Of a stretch of DNA of 64,000 nucleotides, positions 2,307 through 41,795 are shown piece by piece. Each line of letters opens with the position of its first letter. Within the stretch, counting starts at the first letter, position 1. The position numbers were made by a program, and so were the translations under genes. The stretch is taken from NCBI GenBank assembly GCA_951406725.2, contig OX597823.1, positions 58,714,001 through 58,778,000 of the forward strand, given 5' to 3'. A model generated the notes under the pieces. That model ran no database searches and was not told where the DNA came from. It worked only from the letters and a program-made list of their open reading frames with translations. The DNA is from Octopus vulgaris. Its lineage: Eukaryota.

Positions 2307-2438
2307 TATCTGTAAAATTAATATGTGACAATTATTCGGCCAGATAACTGAAGACGTGGCGGTGTGGGTTTCCGCCCGACGAAACTCAGAGTTTTATCAT
2401 GGCTACCAAATAATTGTCACGTATTAATTTTACAGATA
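2307..2438. repeat. 33-bp inverted repeat enclosing the hammerhead
   Basis: 2307-2339 matches the reverse complement of 2406-2438 at 31/33 positions. Confidence 0.9.
2343..2398 (+). ncRNA. Type I hammerhead ribozyme motif
   Basis: Stem I GATAA(2343-47)/TTATC(2394-98). Core CTGAAGA at 2348-54. Stem II GT-GGCGG/CCGCC-(CG bulge)-AC. GAAA at 2381-84. Quasi-palindromic stem III ACTC-A-GAGT. Cleavage triplet GUU. Confidence 0.8.
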
Positions 2439-4604: not shown

Positions 4605-5445
4605 CTTTTACCACTTACTTATTTTAGTCACTAGACTGTGACCATGCTGGGGCACCGTCTGGAAGGGTTTTAATCGAATGAATCGCCCCCAGAGTTTATT
4701 TGTAAGCTTGGTACTCATTCTACTGGTCTCCTTTGCCTAACAGCTGTGTATGGGGACGTAAACGAAACAGCACTGGTTGCCACGCGGCGGTGGTTGACAA
4801 AGGCAAACTCATACACACACATACAAACACTGATACACACAGAAACACACACACAGATACTCAGACACACAGACACACACACACACACACATATATGACA
4901 GGCTCCTTTCAGTTTCCATCTAACAGACTCACTCACAAGGCTTTGGTCGGCCCATGGCTATAGTAAAATACACTTGCCTAAGATAACCACACAGTATTGG
5001 AAGCACTCCGTCGGTTACGACGATGAGGGTTCCGGTTGATCCGAATCAACGGAACAGCCTGCTCGTGAAATTAACGTGTAAGTGGCTGAGCACTCCACAG
5101 ACACGTGTACCCTTAACGTAGTTCTCGGGGATATTCAGCGTGACACAGAGAGTGACAAGGCCGGCCCTTTGAAATACAGGTACAAGAGAAACAGGAAGAA
5201 AGAGTGAGAGAAAGTTGTGGTGAAAGAGTACAGCAGGGATCACCACCATCCCCCGCCGGAGCCTCGTGGAACTTTAGGTGTTTTCGCTCAATAAACACTC
5301 ACAACGCCCGGTCTGGGAATCGAAACCGCGATCCTATGACCGCGAGTCCGCTGCCCTAATCACTGGGCCATTGCGCCTCCACAACCACACAGTAGGACCG
5401 AACATAGAACCATACGGTTGGGAAATAAACTTCTTGCCACTCAGT
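4605..5445 (-). mobile_element. SINE family A (tRNA head, CORE-like segment, internal microsatellite), interrupted by a nested SINE
   Basis: Reverse complement of the copy at 10153-10560. Its head resumes at 5395-5445 after the nested insertion. Confidence 0.85.
4997..5382 (-). mobile_element. SINE family C (tRNA-derived head, tail type 1) with 12-bp target-site duplication
   Basis: Head gtggaggcgcaatggcccagtgattagggcagcggactcgcgg...ggtttcgattccc has A/B-box-like motifs. TSD aaccacacagta at 4985-4996 and 5383-5394. Confidence 0.9.
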
Positions 5446-13324: not shown

Positions 13325-15645
13325 CACTGGTTGACGAAATTAAATGTATTATACTCAATTATAAAATTGACATGTATATACAAAATTAAATGTATTATGA
13401 ATGCAAACCAAATATTTTAGACTAATTTTTCATGCTGCTTTCAAAATTGCACTCCATTTGTATGCAACAAATATCAGTTTTTCAGATGCTACATGCAAAT
13501 ATTTACATATTTGTATATATGAAATCATTAACGTAATAAATAAAGACATATTTTTAGAAAGTTATTGAGTTTATTGAGTTAAAAATCATCACTATCATTC
13601 TACAAAGAGTGAATACACAAAAAAATGGGTCAGAACAAAGTTAGAACAACAGAGTTAGAAACATTGTGATTTGGATTTCCTGCGGTGTTCCTGATCTGGT
13701 TGATCTCAGTAAACTGTCCAGCAATAGTTAACCAGCATACTGTCATACCAGAAGCCTTGGTATGGTCTCCATAGCACTAATGTGCTGGTGAAATATTTCC
13801 CCATGTTCATCAGACATTACTCCAAGGTTATCTGCTAAGAAATCCAGATGGGAGTCCAAGAAGTGAACTTTCAGTGACATGCGACAACCCATTGCTGCAT
13901 TTCCATTAATATTTCAGAAGATTCTTGATACCATTTTTGTAGTCCATCGCCTTCTTGTTGCCCAAGAAATTCTCACAGATCCAATTGAAAGCATTCTATG
14001 CAGGCAGTTCCAGTTCATCCAGTGTTGTCTTGAAGTTGACATCTTTGAGTACTTCTCTAATTTGGGGTCCCTCTTTCAACTTCGCCTGGCATTTATCTTC
14101 ACTAGTGGCTTTACAAATTATTTTATCAGTCCAACCTTTATGTGGAAAGGAGGCAGTAGGTCATTACATGGATCTGCAAGAAGTGTATTCTTGATGTTAG
14201 ACAGCCCTGGCTAGTAGGATGTTTTTGTTGATTTCGTATATTTGTCAGTTGCCCGACTATACCACAGACACAAGAAACAATAGTATTTTGTGAAACCTGA
14301 CTGCATTCCCATTAACATTCCAATGATTTTTAAACCTCTACATATTTTCCATGAGCATCTTTCATAGGCAATGGCGTAAAGTAAAAGTTCCATATTCTCA
14401 TAAGGTTCATGAAGGTGAACGGAGTGTGCAATAGAAATGGAGGGATTCAAATTACCATTATGGAGAAGTACGGTCTTTAAACTTCGTTGTGAAGACTTAA
14501 TAAACAAATGCCACTTTGCAAGATCATGATTTTGTGATAAACATTCAAAAATACCATCGCTGTTATTGCAAAAGCAAAAGTAGCCTTCAATAGAAAAACA
14601 CGTTTGTAGAATCACATTTCTCTGCCGAAAATAAGTTATACGAATACCGTGCTCTAGTAGATACTTCTCCTTCGGTCTTGAAGCCAACACTTCTGCTTTA
14701 TCCTTTGAGAGGGATACGTCTCTGACAAGGTCATTCAGTTCAACTTGGGAAAATTTCTGAGGTTCAAAGCTATCGTCATCAGCCACGTAATCCTCTTCCG
14801 AAGCACTATCGTGACAGTCAGCATCCTCACCTGATGTTTCAATACCATTATCTAGTGGAACTGGAATTGGCAGACTTTCATTGTGAGGCACAGGTCTCAC
14901 TGCAGAATACAAATTAGGATAAACAATTTTGTGTTTATTCTTCCTAGAAAATCCTGTGACACTTACTTTGCAAAAATAACAGTAATTAAAACGGTCTTTC
15001 GGCTCCTTTCATATCATTGGAATGTCAAAGGCATGGACCTCTTATTGAACTAGTCACGTAAGCCATTTGAGCAAGATGAGCAGATAAAATCTAGTGTCCA
15101 TAGCTTGTCCTGATCTCCAGGAGGACAGTCAAAGTATAGCTTATAAATCTTCTTGATCTCTTGTGTTATTGTACGTTTAGACATAACAAAACACATCAGG
15201 ACGATTTCTACATTGTCTTGACAGTGTTAACATTGTAAAACAAGTAAGGAAATAGATACAAATGGTTATACTTATATTGAATTTGAGATAATGAAATATT
15301 TTATCAGACCAATTATGACTGGACAATTTTAGATGTTGAAATACCTATTTCGTCAGACAAAACTTGACTGGTTAATTTAAGATGATGAAATATTGCGACT
15401 GAACTATGCAGCAATGAATAGTGTAGTTTATTTTAAAGGTATGTCTGTATGATGTAAATTAAATAGATACACACACGTCATTAATTGGAATTTCTATATA
15501 ATGCATGACCTAAATTCAAAAATATTTTTCATCTTGAAAACTGTACGCGATGTCAAAAAGCTAATTGTATATTTGAAATCAGCTTTAATTTCTCCACTAA
15601 GTACATTTTGATATATGCTTCATGAAAAATATTTGTTGACCAGTG
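13325..15645 (-). mobile_element. Full-length decayed Chapaev3-like (CMC superfamily) DNA transposon
   Basis: Termini CACTGG...CCAGTG, 3-bp TAA duplication at 13322-24 and 15646-48, and an internal transposase pseudogene. The family name comes from recalled CACTG termini and TWA TSD. Confidence 0.8.
13655..15233 (-). pseudogene. Chapaev3-like transposase, with frameshifts and stops
   Basis: Motifs CRNRPDVFCYV, YSAVRPVPH, SKDKAEVLASR, SLKTVLLHNGN, GFTKYYCFLCLW, MSLKVHFLDSHLDF and SDEHGEIFHQ are readable across frames. ORF 14211-14912 is one piece. Confidence 0.85.
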
Positions 15646-23277: not shown

Positions 23278-24575
23278 CGAGGGGTGTATGAAAAGTCTTG
23301 AGCCTCAAAAAAACCAAACATGGTAAAGACTTCTGATGATTTATTTTTCAACATAGTCCCCCTCGATGGCTGAACACTGTCTCCAGCGGTGCCGAAGCAC
23401 TATTATCCCGGCGTAGAAGAACTCTTCTGTTTGAGACTTCAAGAAACTGCTTACAGCGTCTATGACGTCATTGTCACTGGCAAAATGGCTACCAAACAGG
23501 GCTTTTTTCATTTATAGAAATAGAGGAATGTCAGAGGGGGCTAAGTCTGGCGAATAAGGCGAATGGGGAACAAGTTCGTATCAACAATCACGAATTGTTA
23601 CCATGGCAACCACTGAGGCGTGGGATGGGGCATTCTCGGGATGAAAAAGGACTCTTCTGGTGAGCATTCCCGGCCTTTTTTCTTTGATTGCTTTTCGGAG
23701 GCGTTTCAGTAGCTGAGAATAATACATCCCTGTCACGGTGTGACTCTTTTCAAGGTAATCAATCAGCAAGACGCCTTGAGAATCCCAAAAGACGGACGCC
23801 ATGACCTTGCCAGCTGAAGGAATGACCCTGGCCTTCTTTGGGGTAGGAGAAGATGTGTGTTTCTATTGCTTTGATTGTTCATGGTTTCAGGCTGGTAGTG
23901 ATGAACCCAAATTTCGTCCATAGTAATGAAACGAGCTAGAAAATTCTCTTCATCGGCTTCAAAAAGTTCCAGATTGCTTGTGGACAAAGTACACCTGGTA
24001 CGTTTCTGTTCAGGAGTCAAAAGGCGAAGGACCCACCTTGCAGAAACCTTTGAGAACCCAAGTTCTTTTGTCACAATGTTGTCTGCTCTTTCAGTTGAGA
24101 TGCTCAGTCTCTCGGCTATCTGACGACATGATATTCGGCGATCTTGCATTATCGTACCAAGAGCAAGGTCAAGGTTGTCCTTTGTGGTTACAGTTGGAGG
24201 TCTCCCTTGTCTGGGATCATCTTCCACACTCTCCCTGCCACGTTTGAATTCATTTACCCAGCGTTTGACTGTTGCATATGAAGGAGAATTGTCTGTTAAG
24301 GTTCTCACCATATCTTCATGGATTTCTGATGGAGTCATGCCTTTCAAATGAAGGCACTTTATGACAGCACGATACTCAGTTTTCACCATTTTCCTTGTAA
24401 ACTCGAAGCTTGTTTATTCAAAAATCTGCAAAAAAAAAAAAAAAAATTAAAATATCAGAATCATGAAAATGAGCAAGAATATTTCGAAAAGACTGTACTT
24501 ACCAGAAAAAAATTGTTTCAGCTATATAGCAGCCCCGTTTCTAGGTTAGGCTCAAAACTTTTCATACACCCCTCA
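23278..24575 (-). mobile_element. Full-length (about 1.3 kb) decayed mariner transposon, irritans-like
   Basis: 28-bp TIRs cgaggggtgtatgaaaagtcttgagcct and aggctcaaaacttttcatacacccctca, in a TA-rich target. Confidence 0.92.
23341..24389 (-). pseudogene. Mariner DD34D transposase pseudogene
   Basis: MVKTEYRAVIK..., WVLRLL (WVPxxL), ITMDEIWVHHYQPET, then a frameshift, MASVFWD, HPENAPSH (second D changed to E), PYSPDLAPSD, an in-frame stop, and GDYVEK* at the end. Confidence 0.92.
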
Positions 24576-35022: not shown

Positions 35023-37469
35023 GAATAAATAATATATTGGATTTCCTAGTCAATAGCTGAAGTAACAGAGCAAGTGAGAAGATGTATTTATTGTGAAGCA
35101 GTGAAGCAACACAAAAGAAGATATCTGCCAAGATTCAGAGATTTTTCTCATTCCATATTAGTTTGACGTACCGAGAAGGAAACATTACACGTATGGTTAT
35201 CATGTACATCAACAAACACAGAAATTTCTGGTTAGAACATTTGTGGCTGTTGTAGGTGAACCGATAAATACCTCTCACTTACTGTCTCTTCTTCATATTT
35301 TGGCATGAAATTGAAGTAAAAACACGCACACACGAATGGACACTTACACACACACGCACACACACACACACACACATGCGCACAAGCGCATGTACACCTG
35401 TTTTTATTCTCAGACGATAATAATAACGATGATGGTAGTGATGATAATTGAACAAATGTTATTGCCAAGAACATGGCGCAGAAGTATTCAAAGTCTAGGT
35501 CTACGGGTGAAACGTCAATGTTAATAAACATTCCTAACATTGGTTCAGAGAAAAAAAAATTATTGGCAAGACAGGAGTGGATAAAGAAAAAAAAATACCA
35601 GTATTTGGCTGGTATTTTCTTATTGACCTCGAAAGGTAAAGAGGATATCTGACTGATTTGAATTCAAAAATATATACTTGCCCTTTTCTGTCGTTGGTGG
35701 ACTGCATTGCAGAGATAGTTGCTCAACCACCTCTTCTGTGTCTAGGATGTTTCCAGAAGCAAATGCAAGCCTTGAAAACATCACTTCTTCACTCATGGAT
35801 ATGTCACGAAGGAAAGACAATCCAATACGTTAGCAGCAACTATGGGACGACAAGGGATTGCAGATATCTACTTTAGGGCCCATTCCTCCGTATTTTCTGT
35901 AGGTGTTCACTACCTTAGCATTCTGTAAATGCTCAATAAATCAACTTATGAAGCAACTGGGGTTTATTGTTATTATGGGCATAGTTTGTACAAAACCAGT
36001 CAGGTCTCTCGTCCTTCAAGTTTGTATTGGTTTGGTACAAGTGCCACAAAGCGAAGTAGTTATCAGGATGCAGGACTTCTACTGAGTTACCTATTCTTAG
36101 ATGTGCAGTGATAGTGCTAGAAAGCCTCCTCTACCCAAGGACTGTTGGGATATGTGAGTGATATTCTTATCACATGCCATGCTAAATAACCATAACTGGG
36201 ATCTTGACAGGTGCTACTCTCTCGTGTCAGAGTAGGCCTGGAAACAATAGTAGCTAGGAGGTGGTTCCACACCCTTCAAATGCCCGGAACTTCCGAACGC
36301 AGTTTAATGGTATATCTAAGATACATTACAAAAACATAAATATCGAAAGACATTTTATCCCCCATTCCACTGTCTTCAATAATGTTAATAATTAAAAAGT
36401 ATAAAAAATAACAACTGTGAAAATGTTTAAGACATTCCGCTTTTTTTACATGTTGATCCTGAACGAGGTAGATTGGTATAATCGTTAGTGTTGGAGAAGA
36501 TACCTAGCAGCATTTTTATTCCGGATGTTCAGCTCTTCGCATTCTGAGCTCAAACCCTGATGAGCTGAACTTTGTCTTTTATCACACCTGGAATCGGTTG
36601 ACAAAATAATGTCTCTGGCTGGAATGATTATAACAGAATTTTTAAAGCGTTCGACAAAATATACAGAATTAGCTTCTGTTCTGTGGCGGCATTGGTGCCG
36701 AGCTGTATCGGTTTTTTGCTACTCTTCTGTTCAATACTGGCAGCGTTGTGAGGGGAGACGTTCTGCATTGGTCATTGTAGGTTCTCCATAAAAAAAAAAT
36801 ACAAACTGCGTTCAGGCTTGCATTTCCGAGAGAAATTGTCCTGTTAGAGTTATATAAAAATCCTTGGACAAAGGAGGCTTTAGTTAGAATCTTGATAATT
36901 GAGTGTCCAGCGTATTCGTCCCAAATTCAATAGTGCCATTTATGTATATGGAGAAGTTTTAGAATATCCAAAAGGTTTCTAGGTTGTGTTGAACAATAAA
37001 ATATGACGTTTCGGACTTTTACAATTCAACAAAGGATAAAAATAAGAGATGAGAGACAAGAGAGATTTTTGGCATTCAAAGAACTTTCTTATTGATTTAT
37101 CTTTGCAGATGCGAACGTTTGCAAAATTTCGCTGAATCTGGAATATATCATATTTATCGCTGTAGATTTCCTTGACAAGAATAATGCGCTTGTCATGCAG
37201 TTTTCTACAGGAAATGCAAAGATGATTTCTTGCTACTTTCAGGTATTACAGTTTTTTTTCAATATGACATTATCCTGTGTACTACCCATTTACTAGGTCG
37301 TCACATCTACCTGGGATTCTGTAAATATAGAACGAAAAGAAATTCCAAGAATTATATTATTCAAGGTTTTAATAATTTCACTAATCCGATTCTATGTATT
37401 CTCGCTTTATTTTAGCGACTCCGAAAAGTTGAATGGCGAAGTGAACTTCTCTAATATATATACATATAT

Positions 37470-37608
37470 TCTTTTATTCTTTTACTCGTTTCATTCATTT
37501 CCTTGCGGCCATGGTGGAGCACTACTTTTAATCGAACAAATCTCTTTGCCGAACCGCTAAGTTACGGGAAGTCAACACACCAACATCGGTTGTCAAGCGA
37601 TGGTGAGG

Positions 37609-37659
<51 letters not shown>

Positions 37660-37825
37660 TATGAATGTATGTATGTATACGACGGGATTTTTTCAGTTTC
37701 CGTCTACCAAATCCCCTCACAAGTCTTTGGTTGGCCCAAGGCTAAAGTAGAAGACACTCGCCCAAGTTGCCGCGCAATGGGACTGAACTCGGAATCATGT
37801 GGTTGGGAAGCAACGCCCGTGCCTA
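37470..37825 (-). mobile_element. SINE family A with an internal deletion
   Basis: gcggccatggtggagcac...gggactgaactcggaatcatgtggttggg. Confidence 0.8.
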
Positions 37826-38072: not shown

Positions 38073-38103
<31 letters not shown>

Positions 38104-38382
38104 CAACAATTGAGGGTAAAATTAATTAATTAATCAATTTCACCAAGTGTTCAGTATGTAAAAGGACCATTTAAGGCGAATTCAAAATATTACATTATAT
38201 AATTAGGGCTTAGTAAAATAAATTACTTTGCCACATACTAAACTTAGTAGAAATAGCAGCCAAAAAAAATTTTCTTAGCATTTCTACTACTTAAAGAAAA
38301 TTTCTCTCAGATAATGTTTACTCCAGACAGCTCACGAAGGTTTGGGGGTAAATACAGAAAAATATCACAAGTACATAGATCG

Positions 38383-38445
38383 TTTGAGTACGTCAACGTT
38401 TCAAGATTAGCCAAATAAAATCAGCATTTCTTTCGTCAGCTCAAA
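38383..38445 (-). ncRNA. Type I hammerhead ribozyme, inverted copy
   Basis: Exact reverse complement of 38941-39003. Confidence 0.85.
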
Positions 38446-38940
38446 ATTTCTTAATTTGGATTTGGAAACACTAAAAAGAAGGAACTTTACCTATCAGCGA
38501 ACTTGTCGCTTCAGATGAACCACTCCAACTAAACAGTGTCAACAAATTCAAAATGCGCAGGCGTAAAATTCTACTAAGTTCAGTATGTGGCAAAGTAATT
38601 TATTTTACTAAGCCCTAATTATATAATGTAATATTTTGAATTCGCCTTAAATGGTCCTTTTACATACTGAACACTTGGTGAAATTGATTAATTAATTAAT
38701 TTTACCCTCAATTGTTGATATTATAATTCATTTCTCTCGGTCATACTGCCTCGGTTCTCGCGGTTAAAATATAATGTTTGCTAGATAGACCACGTGGGTG
38801 GAATGGGGAGTGCAGAATTTTACGCCTGCGCATTTTGAATTTGTTGACACTGTTTAGTTGGAGTGGTTCATCTGAAGCGACAAGTTCGCTGATAGGTAAA
38901 GTTCCTTCTTTTTAGTGTTTCCAAATCCAAATTAAGAAAT

Positions 38941-39003
38941 TTTGAGCTGACGAAAGAAATGCTGATTTTATTTGGCTAATCTTGAAACGTTGACGTACTC
39001 AAA
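38941..39003 (+). ncRNA. Type I hammerhead ribozyme
   Basis: Stem I TTTGAG/CTCAAA. Core CTGACGA at 38947-53. Stem II AAGA/TCTT plus GCTGA/TTGGC. GAAA at 38984-87. Stem III ACG-TTGA-CGT. Triplet GUA, with cleavage predicted after 38997. Confidence 0.85.
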
Positions 39004-39183
39004 CGATCTATGTACTTGTGATATTTTTCTGTATTTACCCCCAAACCTTCGTGAGCTGTCTGGAGTAAACATTATCTGAGAGAAATTTTCTTTAAGTAGT
39101 AGAAATGCTAAGAAAATTTTTTTGGCTGCTATTTCTACTAAGTTCAGTATGTGGCAAAGTAATTTATTTTACTAAGCCCTAAT

Positions 39184-39226
<43 letters not shown>

Positions 39227-39271
39227 GGAATATTTCGAAGGGAATAAAAAATATAAACACTTACCATCTAA

Positions 39272-39344
39272 CTCCTGTACCATGGTTTCAAACTCGATTT
39301 AGCAAATAAAGTAATTTGCCCGGCAAATTTCTCATCAGCGGGAG
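39272..39344 (-). ncRNA. Type I hammerhead ribozyme motif
   Basis: Minus strand ctcccg CTGATGA G AAATTTG...CGAGTTT GAAA CCATGG T A caggag. Palindromic stem III ACCATGGT, triplet GUA, one stem I mismatch. Confidence 0.75.
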
Positions 39345-39943
39345 CGCCAAGATTAACATACAAATACGAGGCAACACAGTGCATGCCTCGTGCTTACATA
39401 TAACTTTTCAAACCCACCGCGTAAGCGCAGTTTTATTTTTTGTCAGCAGCAAATAAAACTAATACCGAGTTGCTTCAAAATATTAGCCCCGAAAATTATA
39501 AATAAATATCAGGGAAGGAAAAATCTCAGAAATTTTTACTACCATTGGCCTAACATGTGGAAAACTAGTCAATAGACTTCGAAATTATCCCTAATAGTGG
39601 GTTGGATTTTGACTACTCCTTCTAGCGTGTTAGATGTCCTATTATAGTAATTTCTTATATGTTTAAATGTACACTGTATTTATATGAATAATATATGGTC
39701 TATTGACTAGTTTTCCACATGCTTTGCCACTGATAGTAAAAATTTCTGAGATTTTTCCTACCCTGATATTTATTAAAAATTTTTGGGGCTAATTTTTTGA
39801 AACAAGTCAGCATTATTTTTCTTTGCTGCCGACAAAATAAAAAAAAGAAAAAAACTGCGCTTGCGCGGTGGATTTGAAAAATTATAATATGTAAGCACCA
39901 GGCATGTACTGTGTTGCCTCGTATATTTATGCTAATCTTGGCG

Positions 39944-40016
39944 CTCCTGCTGATGAGGACTTCGCTTGGAAATATACTTTATTTGCTAACTAGAGTTTGT
40001 AACCATGGCCCAGAAG
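39944..40016 (+). ncRNA. Decayed hammerhead copy
   Basis: ctcctg CTGATGA ... GTAA CCATGG C C cagaag. GAAA and U16.1 are mutated. Confidence 0.6.
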
Positions 40017-40222
40017 TTAGATGGTAAATGTTTTTATTTTTCATTCCCTTCGAAATTATCCTCAATAGTGGTTTGGATTTTGACTACTCCTTCTAGTGTG
40101 TTAGATGTTCTATTATGTCCATCTCTTATGTGTTTAAATGTATACTGTATTTTATTATATATATACATATACATATATATATATACTTACATAAAAACAC
40201 ACACACACACACATATATATAT

Positions 40223-40429: not shown

Positions 40430-40465
<36 letters not shown>

Positions 40466-40944
40466 TTTTATTCTTTTATTTGTTTCAGTCAGACTGTGGC
40501 CATGCTGGAGCATCACCTTTAGTCGAACAAATAAACCCCAGGGCTTATTCTTTGTAAACCTAATACCTATTCTATCAGTCTCTTTTGCCGAACTGTTAAG
40601 TTATGGGGATATAAACACACTAACGTCGGTTGTAAAGCAATGGTGAGGGAGACAAACACAGACACACAAACTTATATATATATATATGATGTAAACTCAA
40701 ATTAGGGTATCATATTCATCTAGTTATAAATTCGTCTTAAAACGCGTATACATATATTAATACATATCGACACATATGAATATTAAAAAAATATTTATAA
40801 AACACAAATACATATATAAATATATATGTTAATAAAAAAATCCATGTGGGATACGTATGGAAAAAAGTGTGAGAATTGATAAAAAGAGGCCCAGGAAGGA
40901 CGTGCTTGCGACGCAAGCATCTTACCACACAGCCACGTCTGCAC

Positions 40945-41379: not shown

Positions 41380-41410
41380 TATATATACATATGCATATAC
41401 ATATATATAT

Positions 41411-41795
41411 ATTCTTTTATTTCTTTCAGTCATTTGATTGCGGCCATGCTGGAGCACCGCCGTTAGTCGAACAAGTCGACCCCAGGACTTATTCTTTGTA
41501 AGCTTAATACTTATTCTCTCGGTGCCTTTTGCCGAACCACCAAGTTAGAGGGACGTAAACACACCGAAATCGGTTGTCAAGCGAGGGCAGGGGGACAAAC
41601 ACAGACAAAAAACATATACACACGCACATATATATACGATGGGCTACTTCCTGTTTCCATCTACCAAATCCACTCACAAGGATTTGGTCGGCTCGAGGCT
41701 ATAGTAGAATATGCATGCCCAAGGTGCCATGGAGTGGGACTGAACCCGGACCCATGTAGTTGGTAAGGAAGCTACTTGTCACACATGCACGCCTG
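41411..41795 (-). mobile_element. SINE family A
   Basis: Reverse-complement copy. A further partial copy lies at 40462-40672. Confidence 0.85.

What the first reader, a model, noticed from the sequence alone, without database searches (positions are those of the whole stretch)
38100..39191. Young fold-back element carrying two oppositely oriented hammerhead ribozymes with intact cores
Seen: a 1.09-kb non-coding insert in (TA)n with layout A-B-A'-C-B'-A'(partial). The arms (153 bp and about 379 bp) differ by only one substitution and one 1-nt indel that I could see. A 59-nt terminal redundancy gives a 564-nt period. B' contains a complete type I HHR (38941-39003: 6-bp stem I, CUGACGA, GAAA, stem III with a 4-nt loop, GUA site), mirrored at 38383-38445. 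The first stem II pair is A-U rather than the usual G-C. Established: Penelope-like elements carry HHRs in pseudo-LTRs that occur in direct or inverted orientation, and retrozymes are small non-coding HHR retroelements. Inference: this is a recently active non-autonomous ribozyme retroelement. Transcription from either strand would give an HHR plus about 380 bp of dsRNA, a potential ADAR or siRNA substrate.
Basis: partly seen in the sequence, partly recalled or inferred. Interest (0 to 1): 0.9.

Follow-up and report, generated by a model that had tools for sequence, protein, structure and literature searches.

The report
Penelope-type hammerhead retrozyme, inverted insertion
This is one head-to-head insertion of a young, 564-base non-coding repeat that carries a conserved hammerhead-ribozyme motif, has thousands of relatives in the genome, and is likely copied into (TA)n runs by a borrowed Penelope-type reverse transcriptase, a known kind of element whose insertions here keep an unusually strict two-ends rule.

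Summary
The element, however, is the 564-nt unit (38628-39191); the fold-back is how this copy landed. The 63-nt hammerhead occurs exactly 239 times in the genome and a shared end motif 5,001 times. Seven related 545-571-nt families (63-90% identical) keep 11 of 11 core bases, with compensatory stems and a self-complementary helix III, which points to dimer cleavage. Copies lie in (TA)n, as tandem arrays of up to 11 units or as head-to-head pairs (51 of 85). Their 3' ends fall at two fixed sites about 95 nt apart, and inverted insertions take one of each (37 of 40). Two intact RT+GIY-YIG Penelope families in the genome follow the same rule with 30-39-nt tails. The 5' ends show no clear pile-up at the ribozyme cut site. 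Verdict: a new member of the non-LTR retrozymes, likely moved by a Penelope-like element. Cleavage, circles and the partner enzyme are not shown. In this copy, read-through RNA is predicted to bury the ribozyme in duplex.

The parts
38076..38103 (.). Left (TA)n target run
   Evidence: (TA)n flanks at nearly all family insertions
38095..38572 (-). Arm 1 (478 nt): unit positions 187-564 then 1-98; 3' end at the distal site D, pointing left
38095..38193 (-). About 95-nt 'tail' (unit 1-98), present on this arm only
38383..38445 (-). Type I hammerhead motif, mirror copy; predicted cut 3' of the residue at 38389
38569..38572 (.). Inversion junction, 4-nt overlap shared by both arms (5' ends at unit 187 and unit 506)
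   Evidence: most family junctions overlap by 0-10 nt
38569..39191 (+). Arm 2 (623 nt): unit 506-564 then 1-564; 3' end at the proximal site P, pointing right
38628..39191 (+). One full 564-nt repeat unit; non-coding (longest stop-free stretch 46 aa on +, 66 on -); folds strongly as a circle (z -5.5)
38579..38706 (+). Conserved cis structure around the two end sites: a long-range stem with an inner hairpin enclosing site P, then an AT-rich hairpin just before site D
   Evidence: 31 pairs, 5 with changes on both sides, 13 sequences; shared motif 5,001 times
38941..39003 (+). Type I hammerhead motif: 6-bp helix I, core, helix II with a 3x3 internal loop, self-complementary helix III; predicted cut after A38997 (unit 370)
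39184..39223 (.). Right (TA)n target run

Best explanation
This locus is one head-to-head insertion of a young 564-nt non-coding repeat with a conserved hammerhead motif (a non-LTR retrozyme), likely copied from RNA into a (TA)n run by a Penelope-like RT/GIY-YIG protein acting in trans. Shown by sequence: the unit, its copy number, tandem and inverted layouts, (TA)n targets, variable 5' ends, two fixed 3' ends about 95 nt apart, one of each end per inverted insertion, both arms from one source, and ribozyme conservation. Inferred steps: (1) tandem loci are transcribed as multimers; (2) two ribozymes pair through helix III and cut; (3) monomers are ligated into about 564-nt circles; (4) a Penelope protein, probably a dimer, binds the conserved end structure, nicks (TA)n on both strands and primes cDNA internally at site P from one DNA end and at site D from the other; (5) cDNA runs round the circle, or through uncut multimer, for a variable length; (6) the two cDNAs join by microhomology. 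Here this gave a 478-nt D arm and a 623-nt P arm. This copy is probably unable to release a circle itself.
For: Family: 239 exact ribozyme copies; the 40 of 1,762 candidates that were scored hold full units at 98-100%. Ribozyme under selection: 11 of 11 core bases invariant in 7 families against 43% for the whole unit; N7 varies (C/U/A); H17 is A/U/C, never G; 93.5% of cells paired and 6 of 17 pairs with two-sided changes, 0/500 shuffles, slid controls 29-39%; helix III self-complementary in families A, B and C. Penelope signature: 51 of 85 insertions inverted, all head-to-head; 37 of 40 with both ends classed have one P and one D end (p about 1e-8); 48 of 49 pooled over families, overlapping set. 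Intact autonomous RT+GIY-YIG families show the same one-arm tail: 5 of 5 inverted copies of the 775-aa family and 2 of 2 of the 781-aa family. A purified PLE starts RT internally at two sites that define the tail, extends both target strands and is predicted to be a dimer (PMC11167929). One source per insertion: arms or tandem units of one locus differ by 0.9% against 2.1% between loci, and subfamily variants agree in 71 of 92 (inverted) and 48 of 68 (tandem) comparisons against 11% between loci. More-than-unit template: 1 of 66 arms ends within 5 nt of the cut site and 33 run 19 nt or more past it; one array has 11 units, 8 of 9 compared units without a substitution; the unit folds as a circle with z -5.5 (A) and -6.1 (B).
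Against: No cleavage, circle or transcript was shown. Only 1 of 9 predicted Xenopus retrozyme dimers cleaved in vitro (bioRxiv 10.64898/2026.07.22.740005), and PLE-type hammerheads are weak (PMC4209133). The base of helix II lacks the usual G-C pair. In the one PLE tested, ribozyme cleavage was not needed and uncut RNA was the main template (PMC11167929), so the data do not require circles. No partner was found: none of three young autonomous families shares sequence with the unit, and their tails are about 30 nt, 39 nt, or absent. Near-symmetric junctions are about three times more common than chance (6 of 48 within 12 nt against 2.1 expected), as fold-back self-priming would predict. A few 5' ends lie just 3' of the cut site (unit 373-380: four arms, four more), so some linear cut templates are not excluded. 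Discordant subfamily variants within loci (21 of 92, 20 of 68) are more than one clean template would give.
Confidence: 0.75

Rival explanations
1. Same element and same Penelope enzyme, but the template is uncut linear multimer read from tandem genomic loci (arrays renewed by template jumps or unequal crossover). The ribozyme would act elsewhere, for example freeing a 5' end or limiting RNA life, and no circle is needed. This rival concerns one step only and overlaps the best explanation.
For: Ribozyme mutants of the anole PLE still insert, and no RNA reads ended at its cut site (PMC11167929). Autonomous families here also form tandems. Units within some arrays differ at several sites. 5' ends ignore the cut site under this model too.
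Against: Selection keeps a dimer-type ribozyme and a unit length of 545-571 nt across families 63-90% identical. The unit is highly self-paired as a circle. Coral, mussel and axolotl retrozymes accumulate as circles (PMC7229834). 5' truncation should shorten arrays each round unless something renews them.
Confidence: 0.3
2. The inverted arm is made by fold-back self-priming of a single cDNA, with the second end set by endonuclease cleavage at the other site, not by twin priming from both target ends.
For: Symmetric junctions are enriched (6 of 48 against 2.1), and further cases appear. Self-priming was proposed for PLE inversions (PMC3846280, passage).
Against: Most junctions are asymmetric (42 of 48). 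In this copy each arm holds sequence that the other cannot supply without an extra central deletion: arm 2 has unit 99-186, and arm 1 runs on past P into the tail. The second end is the 'other' site, not the first site met. Symmetric cases often lie in the unit's own hairpins, where two cDNAs could also anneal.
Confidence: 0.2
3. The unit is a detached pseudo-LTR or deletion derivative of an autonomous Penelope element with a long tail that is still in the genome, not a free-standing retrozyme lineage.
For: Xenopus retrozymes resemble PLE pseudo-LTRs (bioRxiv 10.64898/2026.07.22.740005). Only the best 150 of 6,136 GIY-YIG candidates were scored, so most Penelope families were not seen.
Against: In none of the family loci fetched is a Penelope ORF joined in sense orientation upstream of the unit; nearby ORF fragments are separated by (TA)n or reversed. 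The families are collinear over the whole unit and diverge to 63%, which suggests a long independent history.
Confidence: 0.15
4. A DNA element (MITE-like fold-back or Helitron-like rolling-circle repeat), or an assembly artefact, with a chance or relic hammerhead.
For: The locus looks like a fold-back in a TA target; Rfam gives no hammerhead hit; the junction was not checked on reads.
Against: Junctions are unique per insertion, 5' ends vary and 3' ends are fixed. The one-P-one-D rule is not what read-level fold-back artefacts would give (inference). The ribozyme covaries across families. The unit is held by 19 public runs of 7 studies and 4 organism labels.
Confidence: 0.04

Closest known systems
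Metazoan non-LTR retrozymes (coral, mussel, axolotl: Cervera and de la Pena 2020, PMC7229834; vertebrates: Li et al. 2026, bioRxiv 10.64898/2026.07.22.740005)
   Same: Non-coding tandem units, one type I hammerhead per unit, low GC, highly self-paired circle fold, thousands of copies, autonomous PLEs in the same genome; a mismatch at the base of helix II as in axolotl HHR_Amex2.
   Different: Larger than the 170-400 nt given for invertebrates (within the 51-972 bp range of Li et al.). Head-to-head insertions, two fixed 3' ends and (TA)n targeting are not described for retrozymes in the sections read. Circles and cleavage are not shown here.
EN+ Penelope-like elements, Neptune/Naiad/Poseidon insertion architecture (Craig et al. 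2021, PMC8557442; Arkhipova et al. 2013, PMC3846280)
   Same: 5' truncation, partial tandems, inverted 5'-truncated copy, tail on one end only, (TA)n bias.
   Different: No ORF; the tail is about 95 nt rather than 30-40 nt; no sequence match to the three autonomous families examined.
Poseidon element of Anolis (PAc) in vitro (Frangieh et al. 2024, PMC11167929)
   Same: Two internal RT start sites that bound the tail; AT-rich targets; a hammerhead upstream of the start sites.
   Different: PAc is autonomous, and the paper saw no difference in start site between the two target strands, whereas these insertions pair one site with each DNA end in 48 of 49 cases.
PLE minimal/variant hammerheads (Cervera and de la Pena 2014, PMC4209133)
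   Same: Type I, palindromic helix III, dimer design, extra nucleotide at the base of helix II, opposite-strand pairs nearby.
   Different: Helix III is longer here (3 bp plus loop as monomer, 10-bp duplex as dimer); helix II has a conserved 3x3 internal loop; no G10.1-C11.1 pair next to the core.

Membership tests
Type I hammerhead ribozyme | Core C3-U4-G5-A6-N7-G8-A9, G12-A13-A14, A15.1-U16.1, H17, with helices I-III and open helix I | tested here: met
   11 of 11 core bases invariant in 7 families
Type I hammerhead ribozyme | Helices supported by compensatory change | tested here: met
   6 of 17 pairs with two-sided changes, 0/500 shuffles; the 11 sequences are related and the structure was drawn by hand
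Type I hammerhead ribozyme | G10.1-C11.1 closing pair of helix II | tested here: not met
   A-U, U.U, G-U or A.A at that position; a U.U variant that still cleaves is described in axolotl
Type I hammerhead ribozyme | Match to an Rfam hammerhead model | tested here: not met
Type I hammerhead ribozyme | Self-cleavage 3' of H17 | not testable with these tools
   needs in vitro transcription
Non-LTR retrozyme | Non-coding tandem repeats with a type I hammerhead in each unit, at least two consecutive units | tested here: met
   family level: (24 of 139 arms cross two or more cut sites); the window copy itself has one per strand
Non-LTR retrozyme | No LTR, PBS or PPT; dispersed in many copies | tested here: met
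   PBS and PPT were not searched separately, but ends abut (TA)n directly
Non-LTR retrozyme | Highly self-paired predicted circle | tested here: met
   z -5.5 and -6.1 against 40 shuffles; 62-68% paired in 7 families
Non-LTR retrozyme | Expressed as linear and circular monomer RNA | not testable with these tools
   only contigs were available; needs northern blot or RNase R RT-PCR
Non-LTR retrozyme | Target-site duplication | tested here: inconclusive
   insertions lie inside (TA)n, so a duplication cannot be read
Non-autonomous derivative moved by a Penelope-like element | 5'-truncated tandem and head-to-head insertions with a one-sided tail | tested here: met
   tail about 95 nt, longer than the 30-40 nt described
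Non-autonomous derivative moved by a Penelope-like element | Active RT+GIY-YIG elements in the same genome | tested here: met
Non-autonomous derivative moved by a Penelope-like element | Terminus shared with an identified autonomous partner | tested here: inconclusive
   no match in the families seen; most Penelope candidates were not examined
Autonomous Penelope-like element | RT and GIY-YIG ORF | tested here: not met
   longest stop-free stretch 66 aa
MITE / fold-back DNA element | Fixed terminal inverted repeats and a fixed internal layout shared by copies | tested here: not met
   junctions differ among copies and 34 of 85 are not inverted

The most novel reading that the evidence does not exclude
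This radiation of 545-571-nt retrozymes is a genomic footprint of a Penelope dimer copying one small circular RNA from two fixed start sites, one per cut DNA end. The 'one P end, one D end' rule (48 of 49), a covarying RNA structure that would fold a 95-nt tail into reach, and more-than-unit cDNA together give insertion-level evidence that animal retrozymes are moved in trans by Penelope proteins. Intact candidate enzymes in the same genome make this directly testable.
Probability: 0.35. Interest if true: 0.65.

Novelty: new member of a known kind. Interest (0 to 1): 0.45.

Why it matters
That animal retrozymes are moved by Penelope-like elements has rested on co-occurrence, shared ribozyme type and pseudo-LTR similarity, and the origin of Penelope inversions and tails is still called undefined. 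Here a large, young, non-coding family carries the full Penelope insertion signature, with a countable rule linking the two RT start sites to the two DNA ends, and a short conserved RNA structure that marks the likely protein-binding site. A 564-nt RNA, (TA)n DNA and near-identical intact RT/GIY-YIG ORFs from one genome are all that the published in vitro assay needs. The single locus itself is one ordinary copy.

Tried and rejected
Rfam: no hammerhead hit. Fold of the isolated ribozyme: not better than shuffles. Expression: no RNA holder listed. Three runs guessed to be RNA and one of unknown kind were laid as contigs; they cover the unit, and two contigs (384 and 482 nt) bridge the predicted cut site, but contigs show no ends, strand or level and RNA is only a guess, so this is not used for or against. 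No editing signal can be read from them.

Partner search: 781-aa family (39-nt tail), 775-aa family (about 30-nt tail) and 884-aa family (one 3' end at 18 of 19 ends, no inversion in 20 loci) share no sequence with the unit. Twenty further GIY-YIG loci also gave background scores. Four loci with Penelope fragments beside the repeat (L012, L046, L102, L299) are separate or reversed neighbours. The family of the L012 fragment was not searched.

A roughly 290-nt fold-back found 40 times looked like a self-amplifying MITE, but its centres differ from copy to copy, so I read it as short insertions of an older relative. A cluster of short arms 57-63 nt 3' of the cut site is partly one duplicated segment (L276, L282, L301, L309 share flanks).

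The first 5'-end test (2 of 139 within 5 nt against 2.7 expected) is biased, because loci were picked for an intact ribozyme; one search is the fairer test, but it holds duplicates, one clipped arm and five weakly matched arms. One locus (L118, 81% identity) was dropped by the 85% filter.

The neighbouring fold-back at 39232-40056 is unrelated. Earlier scan findings: none. Literature searches listed no paper describing this family or an end rule in retrozymes; Repbase, subscription papers and the preprint's supplements were not seen and could hold it.

Full report
Observation. The insert lies between (TA)n runs at 38076-38103 and 39184-39223. The inverted arms, the 564-nt spacing of the short direct repeat, the one substitution and the one indel are as described. 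A strict descriptor finds two hammerheads in the 64-kb window, at 38941-39003 (+) and 38383-38445 (-). Rfam does not detect them, and the isolated motif folds no better than shuffles, so the case for the ribozyme rests on comparison with relatives.

The real unit. I number the unit 38628-39191 as u1-564; the predicted cut follows u370. In the own genome (2.8 Gb; organism not given, the flanking short repeats recall an octopod from memory, untested) the unit has 1,762 first-look candidates, and the 40 scored hold full units at 98-100%. The 63-nt ribozyme occurs exactly 239 times, control 0. From 100 fetched loci, 85 distinct insertions remained after removing duplicates and one 81% copy. Nearly all lie in (TA)n. 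Of these, 34 are single-direction, with arms up to 2,026 nt (3.6 units), and 51 are inverted, all head-to-head with 3' ends outward. The window copy is u187-564 plus u1-98 on the minus strand, joined by a 4-nt overlap to u506-564 plus u1-564 on the plus strand. No other insertion shares that junction, so the fold-back is a product of integration, not the element.

Two fixed 3' ends. Arms end at site P (about u562-564, sometimes up to 25 nt further) or site D (about u94-98). Single-direction insertions use P 20 times, D 13 times and another place once. Of 40 inverted insertions with both ends classed, 37 have one P and one D end, 2 have P/P and 1 has D/D (expected mixed 50%, p about 1e-8); 11 others have one unclassed end. 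A motif-based recount over families A, B, C and a chromosome sample, overlapping the first set, gave 48 of 49, with 11 unclassed. This is the Penelope 'tail', described as 30-40 nt and often on one end only (PMC8557442, passages; PMC3846280, passages). In vitro it corresponds to two internal RT start sites; that enzyme extends both target strands and is predicted to be a dimer (PMC11167929, parts 1-2 of 4). The genome holds young autonomous RT+GIY-YIG families. One has 76 of 76 scored copies at 100% protein identity. Its inverted copies carry a roughly 30-nt tail on one arm in 5 of 5 cases, and the 781-aa family a 39-nt tail in 2 of 2. Both have a CxxxxCxxC motif before the nuclease, which fits the Neptune/Nematis description. 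A third family (884 aa) has one end and no inversions. None shares sequence with the unit, so the partner is not identified.

A radiation of families. Diverged end sequences led to family B (562 nt, collinear over the whole unit), family C (558 nt, 335 exact hits of a 21-mer) and others. A shared end motif occurs 5,001 times, control 0, and this pattern misses family B. Seven families of 545-571 nt are 63-90% identical; 43% of unit positions are invariant but 11 of 11 core positions are; N7 takes C, U or A and H17 takes A, U or C. On an 11-sequence alignment, 93.5% of cells pair and 6 of 17 pairs change on both sides (0/500 shuffles; slid controls 29-39%); these sequences are related and I drew the structure, so this is support, not a p-value. 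Helix III is self-complementary in A, B and C, and in A and B it forms a duplex with a second copy (-10.8 and -10.0 kcal/mol) but no fold alone. That is the dimer design described for metazoan type I hammerheads (PMC4209133, passages). The region around P and D has its own conserved structure: a long-range stem with an inner hairpin enclosing P, then a hairpin before D (31 pairs, 5 with two-sided changes, 13 sequences). I infer that this is the protein-binding site and that folding shortens the effective 95-nt spacing.

Template. Arms and tandem units of one locus differ by 0.9%, loci by 2.1%; subfamily variants agree in 71 of 92 and 48 of 68 within-locus comparisons against 11% between loci. 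Both arms therefore come from one source, though the discordant quarter is unexplained. In a sample picked by a motif 3' of the ribozyme, 1 of 66 arms ends within 5 nt of the cut and 33 run 19 nt or more past it (duplicates and weak matches included). So a cut linear monomer is not the main template; the template is a circle or an uncut multimer. For a circle: an 11-unit array with 8 of 9 compared units free of substitutions, strong circular folding (z -5.5 and -6.1), and circles in other animals (PMC7229834, parts 2-4 of 6). Against: cleavage was dispensable for the anole element, 8 of 9 Xenopus dimers did not cut (bioRxiv 10.64898/2026.07.22.740005, parts 1-3 of 5; supplements closed), and a few 5' ends fall at u373-380. 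Junctions mostly overlap by 0-10 nt; 6 of 48 are near-symmetric against 2.1 expected, which leaves room for self-priming in some events.

This copy. On either strand a read-through transcript makes the antisense arm first, and folding places the whole ribozyme in the duplex. With one sense ribozyme per strand it cannot release a monomer. It could still form about 380 bp of dsRNA if transcribed; transcription, host-gene context and editing were not established.

Comparison and verdict. It works like a non-LTR retrozyme moved by a Penelope protein. It meets the sequence-level criteria for that group, but not the Rfam match or the G10.1-C11.1 pair; cleavage and circles are untested. Five literature searches (also PMC8969392, passages) listed no description of this family, or of inverted two-ended insertions in retrozymes; repeat databases were not seen. 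The kind is known and the locus is one copy among thousands. What adds value is the strict end rule, the long tail with a covarying structure, and testable enzymes in the same genome. Novelty: new member of a known kind. Interest 0.45.

Noticed in passing
window 39232-40056: A second, older fold-back (about 825 nt, 78% self-complementary) directly after the right (TA)n run, with a further 82-nt partial repeat to 40129; no hammerhead and no similarity to the unit.
   Followed up: partly
window 2336-2397 (+): Another type I hammerhead-like motif of a different family (core at 2342, G-C closing helix II); a similar motif lies in the flank of a family C locus.
   Followed up: no
L098 (about 5300-5350) and L065-L080, 3' regions: The autonomous families appear to carry variant hammerheads, read by eye: a U4-to-C core in the 775-aa family and a C3-G8 to U3-A8 swap in the 781-aa family and its relatives, each with a palindromic helix III.
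   Followed up: no
L084:768-2207: The 781-aa Penelope family has an upstream overlapping ORF of about 479 codons with no clear Pfam match.
   Followed up: partly
L351-L370: A very young 884-aa Penelope family with a 6.17-kb unit, a microsatellite-rich 3-kb 3' region, a single 3' end in (TA)n and no inversions in 20 loci.
   Followed up: partly
L102:676-1677: A truncated Penelope ORF ends and is joined, with no (TA)n between, to a reversed retrozyme arm that stops at unit 149; possibly a template switch or a deletion.
   Followed up: partly
L118:1822-2200: A copy only 80-81% identical to the unit, with many small insertions, yet with a perfect 63-nt ribozyme.
   Followed up: no
L316-L345: Short (about 290 nt) head-to-head insertions of an older relative that lack the ribozyme region and have variable centres; the two read in full (L068 and one in L100) keep one P and one D end.
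   Followed up: partly
L276, L282, L301, L309; L037-L040 and L190/L298: Retrozyme insertions duplicated with their flanks as parts of larger segments.
   Followed up: partly
window 23765-24413 (-) and 14213-15008 (-): Open frames of 216 and 265 codons; the first looks like a mariner-type transposase N-terminus (recalled, not searched).
   Followed up: no
window 37454-37700, 40448-40690, 41389-41480: Copies of an abundant short interspersed repeat next to (TA)n runs; SINE-like by recall.
   Followed up: no
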